This document shows, one piece after another, positions 21,001-24,000 of a stretch of DNA of 25,350 nt. Source of the stretch: Escherichia coli (GTDB lineage Bacteria; Pseudomonadota; Gammaproteobacteria; Enterobacterales; Enterobacteriaceae); NCBI RefSeq assembly GCF_003334255.1, contig NZ_QOWU01000041.1; one strand, written 5' to 3'. Made by a program: the position numbers. Numbering within the stretch: the stretch's first letter is position 1; each line of letters starts with the position of its first letter.

Positions 21001-24000
21001 GGTCATAGCGGACAGCACTGCGCAGTCCATCCAGAATCGGATCGTATATTTTTTTACCTTCCTCACTGCTCAGTGCCATTTCAATCGACCAGATCCGCAC
21101 CGCATCCGGCTGGTTCTGCATGGTCCTGGGCACATCTTCCTCGCTGAGAACACTCTGGTTATTCGCGATAATCTGCTCCAGTCCGGGCAGACGCTCACGG
21201 ATCACCTTCCCCGCATAGCGAATGTAGAGGTCCGCGATGTTGTTCACATACCGCATAATCAGCATATAGTCCGGACGCTCACCGAGGGCCACCAGGGCGC
21301 GGGCGATGATATTGACAAAGCGCCAGGCAAACTCCCGGAAAGCCGCCGAATTACCTTCACCGGACAACTGACCGGCAACACGGGAAGCCACTTCCGATAC
21401 ACGACCAAAGCGTCCCACCGCATTGTAACGGGCTGAAATTTCAGGCCAGCCAAGATGAAAGATATACAACTCATCCCCCCGCCCGGCCCGGTGCGCTTCA
21501 GCCCAGACCCGCAGCAGCAGATCTGCATCCCCCTTGGGATCAAAAACGATGGTCACTTCTCCCCGCCGGATATCCTGGGTGACCAGCAGCTCTGCCAGAC
21601 GGGTTTTACCCACACGCGTGGTGCCGTAGACAATGGTGTGCCCCACACGTTCACCCAGTGCCAGTGTCACATCCTGCTCATCCGGTTCAATACCGTGCAG
21701 GGCCGGATTCCCGCCCACCGGTGGCAGGGGACGAACCGGGTTCAGCGGAGAATCACGACGAAGCCACTGCCCCAGCCCGGGCAGCCGGTGTTCCGTTTTC
21801 ATTTCAAGCCAGCGCGCAGCCCGGTAAAATCCTCCCGGCAGCAGATAATGCGCCACCTCCGGCCGCAGCGTATCCTGCAGACGCTGGGTATGCTTCTGTG
21901 TCCAGCGAAATCCCCGCCCCAGAAACAGTCGCTGACGGCTGACAGGAATTTGCCGCGTGCTCATCACATAGCGGGGTAACCGACGCAGATTGCGTCGGTA
22001 GCGGATGATTTTCATGCCCTGGCGGAAACGGACAGCCGCCAGAACGCCAAATCCGGCAGCTGTGACATAACTGACCGAAGGCGCAAGGGCCACCGCCCAG
22101 GGGGCTGTCACACAGACACCGGCCGCCGTTGCCGCAACCACGGCCGTATTGAACTCCACAGCAGGCCTCAGTAACGCCTCAATAACATAACGGTTACTCA
22201 TGTCCGCGTCCTCGCTGTAAAAGACGCAGCCACCATGAGCGGGGGATATCTGTCTCCGGTGACGCTGACAACGCCTCAGCTCTGTTCTGCAATCTCCTCA
22301 CCTCCCGCCATGCGTCTGCTGCATTCAGTAACAATGCCTTATACTCCGCAGACGCATGTCCGCCAGCCCGTCCGTCATCCACTGTCAGCTGAGCCTCTGT
22401 TCTGAAACGGTCCACTTTCCAGCAGGCCAGGTCTTCGCGGGAAACACTCTGCCGCCGGGTCTGCAGACGAAGATACACACCATGCCGGGAGAGAACATCA
22501 GCCAGATTGTGAATTTCCCGACAGGCAGACCAGAACGCCCGGTCTGCGTGATAAATGCTCTGGGCCACGTTGTGAAGCTGTGTGCGCTCCTCTCCCTGCA
22601 GGTGAAACAGAAAGCGGGCCAGACAACTGCGGTGATTACCATCAGCACTGACATACCAGTGAATGCCATCCGTGCTGACAAAACTCATCCCGGCATGCAG
22701 TTGTTCTGCCTGCGTGTAATACCCCGGGTTCTTCTCCACCAACGGGATATTGATATCCATACGCTTACCGCGCTCCAGCAACTCCAGCCAGCTCATTCCG
22801 GCATACTGTGGATGGTCTGTCCCCACAATGCGGAACACATTGATGCTGCCCTGCCCCGTCCAGTAGTGTTCCGTAATAAAATCCGACATTGCCGCAAACT
22901 CTGCCGCATCCCATGCCCGTAAAGGTTCATTCGCCCATTGCGGCATATTCCTCTGCACCTGTTCAGTAAATGAAACGTTCATCCCCGCTCTCCTGTCATC
23001 TTCGCTTTTCTCCGGTGAGTTCACCGGTCAGTAATCGCCCGTTCAGCAGTTTCAGCAGACGCTGTCCGCTAACCAGTTCAATATCCGGCCACAGCACAAG
23101 CCGTGCCCGGCTGGCCGGTCCCGTACGCCCGGTGTGAACAAAAAATCCACGACAACCTTCACGACGCAGTAATTCACCAAAATCATCGATATGTGACGGT
23201 CGGATGGTGCGGCCATAGCGTTTGGCCTGAATCAGCCACCGCTCGCCGTCAATCAGCACCTGTCCGTCCAGCCCTCCGTCGCCGCTGTAGCGGGAATTGC
23301 GGATAACCCGCATTCCCCTGCGTTCAAACGCCAGAAGCAGCAGTTCTTCAAACACATACGGGTTAATTTTTCGCAGGTATTTCACGCCTGCACCGCCCTC
23401 CGGCAACGACGACAGTTGCGCCAGCACACGCTCAGCCTTGCTCCGGTAATGGCGGTGACGCCACTCACTGGCGCGTTCACGACGCCGGCGGCGACCACAC
23501 AGGACGGGAAAAAACAGGAACAACACAGCCAGGACACACAGCAGAACGCCGTACGGTATCTTATCCGGCACAATATCCGTCATTTGCCGCAGCATCACGG
23601 TGTCACCACCCCGGATATTCCGCTGTCCGTTATCAGTACCGGCCAGTGATTCAGCTGCAGACGGCGTGCCAGCGCTGACCCCGATGATGGCACCATCATC
23701 ACGCCGGGTGCCAGCTCACGCAGCGTTCTCAGGCTGTTTTCATCCGCCACGCTGACAACCATACCGACAGCCTGCCGCTCACGGAGAGCGCCCGCATTCG
23801 CCTGCAGCCACTGACGGGAAAGCGCATCATCTCCCACCAGAAACAGCGCCCCGATCCCCGGCAACTGCAGTGGTCGCGGCGTCACCTCACCCGGCGTCAT
23901 TTCCGGCGTGGTCACGGGCAGCAACAGCGTCTCTCCCTGCGCCGGCAGAGGCGCCGTAACCGGGGGAGGCGTACTGCTCCCCTCCTGGCGGTTGATTGCC

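What the first reader, a model, noticed from the sequence alone, without database searches (positions are those of the whole stretch)
22194..23598. Membrane-anchored Mrr-like nuclease and a DGxHR-motif protein embedded just upstream of traD
The 200-aa protein has an N-terminal TM helix and an Mrr-type catalytic core; the adjacent protein has a DGNHR motif reminiscent of ParB/Srx or DUF262 folds. Both are overlapped or coupled with the flanking transfer genes. A nuclease pair inside a conjugation operon could act in defence or anti-defence during transfer, in exclusion of incoming DNA, or in DNA processing. A membrane-tethered Mrr-like domain is unusual.
Basis: partly seen in the sequence, partly recalled or inferred. 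Interest (0 to 1): 0.55.

Follow-up and report, generated by a model that had tools for sequence, protein, structure and literature searches.

The report
Two accessory DNA-enzyme genes before traD
Just upstream of the coupling-protein gene traD in an E. coli conjugative island lie two real but independent accessory genes: a common membrane-anchored Mrr-type nuclease that plasmid annotators already call mrr, and a member of an undescribed ParB/sulfiredoxin-like family found inside conjugation operons of many bacteria.

Summary
Window 22194-23598 (minus strand) carries two translationally coupled genes between the DUF2859/PFL_4695 gene and traD. The element is an SPI-7/ICEclc-type (MPF_G) ICE, 100% identical to E. 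coli STEC2018-553.

Gene A (199 aa) has a TM helix, a polybasic stretch and a full-length Mrr_cat domain (E=1.3e-18) with invariant D...QxK residues.

The "nuclease pair" reading fails, because the two genes occur independently:
- Mrr was adjacent to a gene-B homologue in 2 of 60 loci.
- Many enteric ICEs have DUF2859-Mrr-TraD without gene B.
- ICEclc, whose T4SS is functional, has neither gene at this junction.

The membrane-anchored Mrr is not unusual. It is the "mrr" backbone gene of IncN plasmids, is also on IncL plasmids, and has homologues in 2,606 PLSDB plasmids.

Gene B is the more interesting part. Its family has 478 clusters and sits inside MPF_G, MPF_F and MPF_T transfer operons across phyla, at varying positions.

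Function is untested. My inference is DNA- or NTP-directed activity at the cytoplasmic face of the T4SS, possibly used in conflict between mobile elements.

The parts
23595..24125 (-). Upstream flank: PFL_4695/DUF2859 gene, a periplasmic thioredoxin-like T4SS accessory protein. Its stop overlaps the start of gene A.
   Evidence: NCBIfam TIGR03765 E=7.6e-39. PGAP calls it 'integrating conjugative element protein'. The ICEclc homologue orf71178 is described in PMC10018362 Table 1. The junction reads TGATG.
22996..23598 (-). Gene A: a membrane protein with one TM helix carrying an Mrr-type nuclease domain. It is 199 aa from the ATG at 23595 and 200 aa from the GTG at 23598. PGAP record WP_032308785, 'restriction endonuclease'.
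23494..23550 (-). Gene A transmembrane helix GVLLCVLAVLFLFFPVLCG. A hydrophobic helix is present at this position in all 15 homologues checked, although its sequence varies.
   Evidence: Kyte-Doolittle scan and translation.
23443..23493 (-). Gene A polybasic segment next to the membrane, RRRRRERASEWRHRHYR. By the positive-inside rule it places the nuclease domain in the cytoplasm.
   Evidence: and alignment A3. The natural fusion P0051 (periplasmic DUF2859, then TM, then Mrr) has the matching topology.
23044..23376 (-). Gene A Mrr_cat (PD-(D/E)xK) domain, residues 75-185. The catalytic core DGGLDGQVLIDGERWLIQAK lies at nt 23221-23280.
   Evidence: Pfam PF04471 E=1.3e-18, full model. E83, E84, D106, D110, Q123 and K125 are invariant in 17 sequences. 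Translation.
22194..22982 (-). Gene B: a soluble 262-aa protein of an undescribed family. PGAP record WP_032308786, 'hypothetical protein'.
   Evidence: No TM segment (maximum Kyte-Doolittle mean 0.47). Shine-Dalgarno AGGAG upstream of the ATG.
22581..22982 (-). Gene B N-terminal domain (residues 1-134), ParB/Srx-like. The DGNHR motif lies at nt 22629-22643, at the junction between a strand and helix 116-128.
22263..22580 (-). Gene B C-terminal alpha/beta domain (about residues 135-240): a long antiparallel sheet packed against helices, followed by a low-confidence tail. It has conserved D147 and the R182-x-D184...W188 residues.
20084..22201 (-). Downstream flank: traD, the type IV coupling protein. 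Its ATG overlaps the end of gene B by 8 nt.
   Evidence: NCBIfam TIGR03754, 1086 bits. Junction ATGAGTAA.

Best explanation
SHOWN.
- The interval is a variable insertion slot at the DUF2859-to-traD junction of the T4SS operon of an SPI-7/ICEclc-type (MPF_G, TIGR037xx gene set) ICE in E. coli.
- In this element the slot holds two unrelated accessory genes, co-transcribed and translationally coupled with the transfer genes.
- Gene A is a single-pass membrane protein: TM helix, polybasic segment, then an Mrr_cat PD-(D/E)xK domain with an intact D...QxK site. It lacks the DNA-recognition domain of classical Mrr.
- Gene A belongs to a subfamily that also includes the 'mrr' backbone gene of IncN plasmids and the homologue on IncL pOXA-48.
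- Gene B is a soluble two-domain protein of a family with no Pfam or NCBIfam model.
- Gene B's family is found almost only inside conjugative-transfer or ICE DNA-processing gene clusters of types MPF_G, MPF_F and MPF_T. It is co-directional with them, its position varies, and it has no constant partner.

INFERRED.
- The nuclease domain of gene A faces the cytoplasm. This rests on the positive-inside rule and on natural fusions of periplasmic DUF2859, TM and Mrr.
- The N-domain of gene B has a ParB/Srx-like fold whose (D)GNHR loop binds a nucleotide phosphate, as the equivalent motif does in ParB, sulfiredoxin, SerK and Osa.
- Both proteins are made only when the transfer operon is on, and both act on DNA or NTP at the cytoplasmic face of the T4SS and coupling protein.
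- The role I consider most likely is conflict between mobile elements: degrading or blocking DNA substrates of co-resident or incoming rival elements, as the ParB/Srx protein Osa does at VirD4-type coupling proteins. Classical anti-phage restriction or an essential transfer step seems less likely.
For: Identity and setting:
- The window is 100% identical to NZ_CP075665.1 and carries the TIGR037xx gene set.

Slot variability:
- ICEclc, and ICEs from uncultured Gammaproteobacteria and related metagenome contigs, have DUF2859 directly followed by TraD.
- Edwardsiella has gene B only.
- Serratia and this window have Mrr plus gene B.
- E. coli GF4 has Mrr, a 170-aa membrane protein and gene B.
- ICEs of Salmonella and another member of the Enterobacteriaceae have Mrr only, or Mrr plus a 162-aa protein.

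Gene A:
- Pfam match, conserved TM helix and invariant catalytic residues.
- DUF2859-TM-Mrr fusions P0044 and P0051.
- The IncN homologue is 47% identical over the region that includes the TM helix. The IncL homologue has the same architecture.
- 2,606 plasmid records carry a homologue, 78% of them conjugative.
- 'mrr' is listed as an IncN backbone gene in PMC5027574 and PMC3347995.

Gene B:
- 478 clusters at 50% identity.
- 60 genomic loci from many phyla. In 46 of them a transfer or DNA-processing marker lies within the flank, nearly always on the same strand.
- It sits inside a Trb (MPF_T) operon in Mucispirillum and next to TraE and TraK in Helicobacter.
- Natural fusions join gene B, a TM helix and a periplasmic TraF domain.

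Against: - No experiment bears on either protein. No paper found here tests either family, including the IncN 'mrr' gene.
- Pfam ParB and DUF262 models do not match gene B. hhalign against ParB alignments gives E=0.26 and 0.41.
- Gene B's wide and ancient distribution inside T4SS operons could equally mean a positive accessory role in transfer.
- Transfer-restricted expression is inferred from gene layout and from what is known of ICEclc. It was not measured here.
Confidence: 0.5

Rival explanations
1. Gene A is ordinary defence cargo: a stand-alone type IV (modification-dependent) restriction nuclease that protects the host from phage or foreign DNA. Gene B is an unrelated passenger.
For: Pfam Mrr_cat match. 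PGAP and plasmid annotators name it 'restriction endonuclease'. Weak PADLOC hits to mREase_IV (E=1.9e-4) and PDC-S02 (E=4e-5). In IncN plasmids it lies next to the EcoRII R-M genes.
Against: - The PADLOC hits cover only the catalytic domain of much longer models.
- The protein has no Mrr_N or other DNA-recognition domain, only a TM helix.
- It holds a fixed slot inside the T4SS operon, its start overlaps the DUF2859 stop, and it is sometimes fused to DUF2859. That ties it to transfer-time expression, which does not suit a standing defence.
- Real defence cargo in this window sits elsewhere, in the low-GC end region (REase_II-like ORF at 320-1492).
Confidence: 0.2
2. One or both proteins are positive accessory factors for this ICE lineage's own transfer. 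Gene A might help the MOBH relaxase cut or terminate the transferred strand at the coupling protein. Gene B might be an NTP-dependent accessory of the relaxosome or T4SS.
For: - Both are translationally coupled to DUF2859 and traD.
- Gene B lies inside T4SS operons of three MPF types, or beside TopoIII and SSB, across phyla, under clear purifying selection.
- Gene B-TM-TraF and DUF2859-TM-Mrr fusions suggest physical closeness to the machine.
- A review (PMC12857230) notes that no covalent MOBH relaxase-DNA intermediate has been observed, so how the strand is recruited and religated remains open.
Against: - ICEclc transfers with a defined essential gene set that has neither gene at this junction.
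- Both genes are patchy among closely related ICEs, and gene B has no fixed neighbour. That pattern is typical of dispensable accessory genes.
- In IncN and IncL plasmids the Mrr gene lies outside the essential tra genes.
Confidence: 0.2
3. Gene B is an establishment or anti-defence factor that acts in the new host. This would resemble ParB-like leading-region proteins such as YfjB/HerB, which reprogram the recipient after entry.
For: - ParB-like fold.
- In many ICEs gene B lies next to ssb and topoisomerase III in the DNA-processing module.
- Precedent: HerB, bioRxiv 10.64898/2026.07.07.736705.
Against: - Gene B has no helix-turn-helix or other recognisable DNA-binding domain, and its C-domain does not resemble ParB.
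- In this window, and in many other loci, it sits deep inside T4SS operons rather than in a leading region.
- Fusions to TraF argue for action at the donor's machine.
Confidence: 0.08
4. The two genes form a toxin-antitoxin or nuclease-plus-regulator pair: a membrane nuclease toxin with gene B as its inhibitor or activator.
For: They are adjacent and coupled in this window and in Serratia.
Against: - Mrr occurs without gene B in Salmonella and other Enterobacteriaceae ICEs and in thousands of plasmids.
- Gene B occurs without an adjacent Mrr in 58 of 60 loci.
Confidence: 0.02

Closest known systems
IncN plasmid backbone gene 'mrr' (R46, N3, pKOX105, pKPC-47e) and the IncL pOXA-48 'restriction endonuclease' WP_004187392
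   Same: Same architecture: an N-terminal TM helix, an Arg-rich segment, then Mrr_cat. The IncN protein is 47% identical over 167 residues. The motifs YLRKI(N/D)P(Y/F)VFEELLL, GDGG(L/I)DG and LIQAKRY are conserved. All are carried by conjugative elements.
   Different: In the plasmids the gene lies in the korB-kikA operon (IncN) or in an HTH-led operon near resD and parM (IncL). It is not between DUF2859 and traD. None has a tested function in the papers found here.
E. coli Mrr and type IV methyl-directed restriction enzymes (Pfam Mrr_cat PF04471; PADLOC mREase_IV)
   Same: Shared catalytic PD-(D/E)xK domain of the D...QxK type. The Pfam match covers the full model at E=1.3e-18.
   Different: Gene A has no N-terminal DNA-recognition domain. 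A membrane anchor takes its place, and the protein is about 200 aa against about 300. The PADLOC match is weak and covers the catalytic domain only.
ParB/sulfiredoxin superfamily: ParB and KorB N-domains, sulfiredoxin, serine kinases SerK and SbnI, PadC
Osa (pSa and R388), a ParB/Srx-fold fertility-inhibition factor that acts against rival coupling proteins
   Same: A small soluble ParB/Srx-type protein encoded by a conjugative element. Like gene B it is a mobile accessory gene with a patchy distribution (PMC5696584).
ICEclc / PAPI-1 / SPI-7 (MPF_G) T4SS gene set (iceB and iceD4 nomenclature)
   Same: The flanking genes are orthologues: TIGR03759, SLT/IceB1, DUF2859 (orf71178), TraD/IceD4 and TIGR03747 (orf68241).
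   Different: In ICEclc, orf71178 is followed directly by iceD4, with neither gene A nor gene B at this junction. In pUM505, which carries PAPI-1-like MPF_G/MOBH genes, the gene B homologue lies after topA instead.

Membership tests
Mrr_cat / PD-(D/E)xK nuclease (Pfam PF04471) | Significant match to the family profile over the whole domain | tested here: met
   E=1.3e-18, residues 75-185 against model positions 1-115 of 115. Precomputed PF04471 hits on nearly all homologues listed.
Mrr_cat / PD-(D/E)xK nuclease (Pfam PF04471) | Conserved catalytic acidic residues and the (Q/E)xK motif | tested here: met
   E83, E84, D106, D110, Q123 and K125 are invariant in 17 sequences that are 52-83% identical to the query. 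That Mrr uses a D...QxK variant is from my own knowledge.
Classical type IV restriction enzyme Mrr (defence system) | N-terminal DNA-recognition (Mrr_N-type) domain joined to the catalytic domain | tested here: not met
   Residues 1-74 hold only a TM helix, a basic stretch and a short linker. The PADLOC mREase_IV hit covers only model positions 169-291 of 317, at E=1.9e-4.
Classical type IV restriction enzyme Mrr (defence system) | Cleavage of modified DNA and protection from phage | not testable with these tools
   Requires biochemistry and phage assays.
ParB/Srx superfamily (gene B N-domain) | Match to sequence profiles of the superfamily (Pfam ParBc PF02195, DUF262 PF03235 and others) | tested here: not met
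   No Pfam hit at E<=10 for the full-length query. None of 50 relatives matches a Pfam family at E<=0.001, and none of the weaker hits is a ParB or DUF262 family. No NCBIfam hit. hhalign against two ParB alignments gives E=0.26 and 0.41.
ParB/Srx superfamily (gene B N-domain) | ParB/Srx fold | tested here: inconclusive
ParB/Srx superfamily (gene B N-domain) | Conserved G-x-x-R / DGxHR phosphate-binding motif at a strand-helix junction | tested here: met
   DGNHR is invariant in 24 sequences. Across 135 sequences G is 97%, H 89%, R 96%, D 79% and the following Ala 90% conserved. The motif lies between strand 109-113 and helix 116-128.
ParB/Srx superfamily (gene B N-domain) | Nucleotide binding or hydrolysis, or DNase activity | not testable with these tools
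   Requires purified protein.
Osa-type fertility-inhibition factors | Homology to Osa | tested here: inconclusive
Osa-type fertility-inhibition factors | Blocks transfer of co-resident plasmids through their coupling protein | not testable with these tools
   Requires mating assays.
Core MPF_G ICE transfer proteins (TIGR037xx / ICEclc essential set) | Match to an ICE-specific NCBIfam model, and presence at the same place in ICEclc | tested here: not met
   No NCBIfam family matches either protein, while all flanking genes but one match TIGR037xx models. ICEclc Table 1 shows orf71178 followed directly by iceD4. Gene B is unrelated to the PFL_4669 family.
Two-gene system (toxin-antitoxin or obligate nuclease pair) | Consistent co-occurrence of the two genes | tested here: not met
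   Mrr is adjacent in 2 of 60 gene-B loci. Three of three sampled Mrr contexts had no called gene of gene B's size next to Mrr. Plasmid records with a homologue number 2,606 for Mrr against 7 for gene B.

The most novel reading that the evidence does not exclude
Gene B would define a new, ancient branch of the ParB/Srx superfamily. It would be a dedicated cytoplasmic accessory of conjugative T4SSs of types G, F and T. It would use NTP binding or hydrolysis, or DNase activity, at the coupling protein and VirB4 face of the machine. Its job would be to screen or destroy DNA substrates (an Osa-like weapon against rival elements) or to hand the element's own DNA to the channel. In enteric ICEs it would work beside a membrane-tethered Mrr nuclease, and together they would form a DNA gate at the inner membrane.
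Probability: 0.2. Interest if true: 0.7.

Novelty: new variant of a known kind. Interest (0 to 1): 0.42.

Why it matters
Conjugative T4SSs of ICEs still contain many conserved genes with no assigned role.

- **Gene B:** this family has no Pfam or NCBIfam model and is annotated only as 'hypothetical'. It nevertheless recurs inside transfer operons of three T4SS types, from enterics to Helicobacter, Mucispirillum and Aquifex. If it is an NTP- or DNA-acting factor at the machine, it would add a new component or weapon to conjugation biology. It would also be a possible handle on the spread of ICEs.
- **Gene A:** the membrane-anchored Mrr subfamily lies on thousands of clinically important plasmids, including IncN and the pOXA-48-type IncL plasmids. 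It is routinely labelled 'restriction endonuclease' without any test, and its architecture suggests that the label is misleading.

Tried and rejected
- **Sequence searches for gene B.** PDB sequence searches with profiles A1 and A2 gave only chance hits. PHROGs and PADLOC gave nothing.
- **PFL_4669 (TIGR03761).** In other ICEs gene B sits where this family sits in this ICE, next to TopoIII, so I tested whether they are related. hhalign gave E=0.31, so I rejected the idea.
- **hhalign against ParB alignments.** A2 against alignments of ICE ParB and ParB_N proteins from the fetched loci was not significant, although the motifs line up.
- **DUF262/GmrS.** There is no profile or structural hit, so I rejected it as a specific assignment.
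- **Conserved partner gene for gene B.** I clustered all ORFs within 3 kb in the 60 loci. No family occurs in more than 12 loci.
- **Solved relatives of gene A.** A PDB sequence search with A3 found none.
- **Literature.** Searches on Mrr in ICEs, pOXA-48, pCTX-M3, IncN and PAPI-1, and on the string DGNHR, found only annotation-level mentions. In the pCTX-M3 review 'MRR' means multiple resistance region.
- **Internal promoters or terminators.** None exceeded chance.
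Full report
**1. What the window is**

The 1.6 kb around the finding is 100% identical to the chromosome of E. coli STEC2018-553, NZ_CP075665.1. PGAP annotation of that record and NCBIfam scans show an integrative conjugative element of the SPI-7 / PAPI-1 / ICEclc kind, with an MPF_G T4SS.

All genes here are on the minus strand. Their order is:
- TIGR03759
- a lytic transglycosylase
- PFL_4695/DUF2859
- 'restriction endonuclease' (gene A)
- 'hypothetical protein' (gene B)
- traD (TIGR03754, 1086 bits)
- TIGR03747

**2. Check of the observation**

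Both ORFs are present at the stated coordinates.

Gene A:
- It matches Pfam Mrr_cat over the entire model (E=1.3e-18).
- It has one strong hydrophobic helix, residues 17-35 with a Kyte-Doolittle mean of 2.76. An RRRRRER...RHRHYR stretch follows.
- In an alignment of 17 homologues the helix is present in all but varies in sequence. E83, E84, D106, D110, Q123 and K125 are invariant.

Gene B:
- It carries DGNHR at nt 22629-22643.
- The start is more likely the ATG at 22982, giving 262 aa. It has an AGGAG Shine-Dalgarno sequence, it is the PGAP start, and homologues begin there.

Gene junctions:
- DUF2859 stop and gene A start: TGATG.
- Gene A to gene B: 13 nt containing the Shine-Dalgarno sequence.
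- Gene B stop and traD start: ATGAGTAA.
- No minus-strand promoter-like site lies in this stretch, and the terminator-like sites do not exceed chance.

**3. Gene A is a common, already-named gene family**

Word-indexed homology search found 695 relatives. Those listed are about 175-211 aa apart from fragments and fusions, nearly all carry PF04471, and sources call them 'restriction endonuclease' in Salmonella (including Typhi), Serratia, Klebsiella and others.

Three sampled genomic contexts all showed the gene in the same slot, DUF2859-Mrr-TraD, once with an extra 162-aa gene and with no called gene of gene B's size. They came from two Salmonella proteins and one protein labelled Enterobacteriaceae.

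Two protein clusters are fusions of the periplasmic DUF2859 domain, the TM helix and the Mrr domain (P0044 and P0051). Together with the positive-inside rule, this places the nuclease in the cytoplasm. That topology is inferred.

tblastn against PLSDB found homologues in 2,606 of 72,556 plasmids, 78% of which are predicted conjugative.
- The IncL pOXA-48 protein has the same architecture of TM helix, Arg-rich stretch and Mrr domain.
- The IncN protein is 47% identical, including the TM region. It lies in the korB-kikA operon beside the EcoRII genes.
- IncN papers list it as the backbone gene 'mrr' (PMC5027574 and PMC3347995).

I found no functional study. What holds is that this subfamily lacks the DNA-recognition domain of classical Mrr, and its 'restriction endonuclease' label is untested. 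PADLOC gives only weak, catalytic-domain-only hits.

**4. Gene B belongs to an undescribed but widespread family**

Sequence-level searches:
- No Pfam family matches the full-length query at E<=10.
- None of 50 diverse relatives matches a Pfam family at E<=0.001, and none of the weaker hits is a ParB or DUF262 family.
- NCBIfam, PADLOC and PHROGs are negative.
- PDB sequence searches are negative.
- A profile search of 1.84 billion cluster representatives found 478 clusters at E<=1e-3 and 270 at E<=1e-10. Most proteins are 230-260 aa.

Motif. The family signature is x-(D)-G-N-H-R-(S/T)-C-I-A-(K/R)-F. Conservation is G 97%, H 89%, R 96%, A 90% and D 79%.

Structure:
- AlphaFold2 gives confident models: pLDDT 90.8 for the full length and 90.7 for the N-domain.
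- The N-domain places the motif between a strand and a helix.
- The C-domain is a long antiparallel sheet packed against helices.
- Foldseek against AFDB50 found 51 hits at E<=1e-3. Nearly all are 'Uncharacterized protein'.
- The named Foldseek hits are a TraF fusion, a family member labelled ParB (E=3e-8) and a 'ParB/Sulfiredoxin domain-containing protein' (E=3e-4).
- hhalign against two ParB alignments was not significant, but it put DGNHR on the GGNTR and GNQR boxes.

I rate the ParB/Srx fold as likely, at about 0.75, but not proven. Nothing supports DUF262 specifically.

**5. The two genes are not a pair, and the slot is variable**

A scan of one genome per species recovered 60 gene-B loci. 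They come from Enterobacterales, Pasteurellaceae, Neisseria, P. aeruginosa PA7, beta- and deltaproteobacteria, Nitrospirae, Aquifex, Helicobacter, Mucispirillum and Bacteroidales.

A tblastn panel found a transfer or DNA-processing marker in 46 of the 60 loci, nearly always on the same strand. Gene B's position varies:
- between DUF2859 and TraD;
- next to VirB4;
- next to topoisomerase III and SSB, as also seen in pUM505, which carries PAPI-1-like MPF_G/MOBH genes, where it follows topA;
- inside MPF_F clusters (TraU, TrbC, S26 peptidase, TraF, TraH);
- after TraD;
- in Mucispirillum, between TrbI and TrbJ of a P-type operon;
- in Helicobacter, after TraE and TraK.

Further points:
- Mrr was adjacent in only 2 of the 60 loci, both Serratia.
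- Clustering all neighbours within 3 kb found no partner family in more than 12 loci.
- Gene B is rare on plasmids, with 7 records.
- Two independent clusters, plus a UniProt entry, are fusions of gene B, a TM helix and a periplasmic TraF thioredoxin domain. This topology is consistent with a cytoplasmic protein that works at the membrane machine.

Known contents of the DUF2859-traD slot:
- empty in ICEclc (PMC10018362 Table 1) and in ICEs from uncultured Gammaproteobacteria and related metagenome contigs;
- gene B only in Edwardsiella;
- Mrr only in ICEs of Salmonella and another member of the Enterobacteriaceae;
- Mrr plus a 162-170-aa membrane protein, with or without gene B;
- Mrr plus gene B in this window and in Serratia.

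The ICEclc T4SS has been dissected genetically, and neither gene is in its gene table. They are therefore accessory and not core.

**6. Mechanism**

Shown: the anatomy, conservation, distribution and operon embedding described above.

Inferred:
- The Mrr domain faces the cytoplasm.
- Gene B binds a nucleotide through its GNHR loop.
- Both are expressed with the transfer operon.
- Both act on DNA or NTP at the inner face of the T4SS and coupling protein.

My preferred role is conflict between mobile elements. The precedent is Osa, a ParB/Srx protein that blocks rival plasmids at their coupling proteins (PMC5696584). The patchy, mobile distribution of both genes fits that kind of role.

Confidences:
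- Preferred package as a whole: 0.5, with the functional part weaker than the anatomical part.
- Defence cargo: 0.2.
- Positive accessory transfer factor: 0.2.
- Establishment factor in the recipient, like HerB/YfjB: 0.08.
- Toxin-antitoxin or obligate pair: 0.02.

**7. Novelty and score**

Gene A is a new member of an already annotated family whose function is untested. Gene B is a new, unmodelled family that is probably a variant of the ParB/Srx fold, and its association with T4SS operons of three types had not been noticed in anything I could find.

Nothing here is categorically new, and no function is shown. I score interest at 0.42 and novelty as 'new variant of a known kind'. The most novel reading still open is gene B as a dedicated DNA- or NTP-acting component or weapon of the T4SS. 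I give that a probability of about 0.2 and an interest of 0.7 if true.

Noticed in passing
window 320-1492 (+): A 390-aa ORF in the 36%-GC end region matches the PADLOC Type II restriction enzyme model over nearly the full model length (E=6e-86) but matches no NCBIfam model. It looks like real defence cargo at the edge of the ICE, beyond the TraG_N gene. No methyltransferase partner was looked for.
   Followed up: partly
window about 7888-9978 (-); L001 5789-7879: The siderophore receptor/adhesin gene iha, annotated as a pseudogene with an internal stop, is inserted inside the T4SS gene cluster between the TIGR03757 gene and the genes upstream of the VirB4-type ATPase. GC content dips locally.
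   Followed up: no
window 18504-19085 (+): A 193-aa ORF on the opposite strand lies in a low-GC (44-49%) island between the RAQPRD and TIGR03747 genes. It has no NCBIfam or PADLOC match. This may be another insertion point inside the transfer operon.
   Followed up: partly
window 2219-2527 (+) and about 2100-2251: A PemK/MazF-family toxin gene lies next to a transposase fragment at the low-GC end of the element. No antitoxin gene is annotated beside it.
   Followed up: no
proteins P0044 and P0051 (homologues of window 22996-24125): These are natural single-ORF fusions of the periplasmic DUF2859 protein with the TM helix and Mrr domain. P0051 is seen on 4 contigs of up to 220 kb. They are useful as topology evidence, and they might also hint at a physical link between the two proteins.
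   Followed up: partly
L005 1820-3385; L006 3128-4399; UniProt A0A9D6M579: In F-type tra operons of uncultured Deltaproteobacteria, gene B homologues are fused through a hydrophobic segment to a TraF thioredoxin-like (CPYC) domain.
   Followed up: partly
L012 4766-5278 (-); L075 5584-6072 (+): A third optional occupant of the DUF2859-traD slot is a 162-170-aa predicted membrane protein that follows Mrr in E. coli GF4 and a Salmonella ICE. The two copies are distant homologues (27% identity, E=2e-9) with no PADLOC match; other libraries were not searched.
   Followed up: partly
L016 (Pectobacterium sp. PL152) 1472-14457: In this ICE, traD and the VirB4-type ATPase gene appear broken into several pieces, while the gene B homologue is intact at 99% coverage. 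Gene B may be retained in a decaying element.
   Followed up: no
L079 (P. aeruginosa pUM505) 3730-6723: In this MPF_G/MOBH element with PAPI-1-like genes, the gene B homologue directly follows topA and lies close to crpP, the ICE-associated gene often annotated as a fluoroquinolone-resistance determinant.
   Followed up: no
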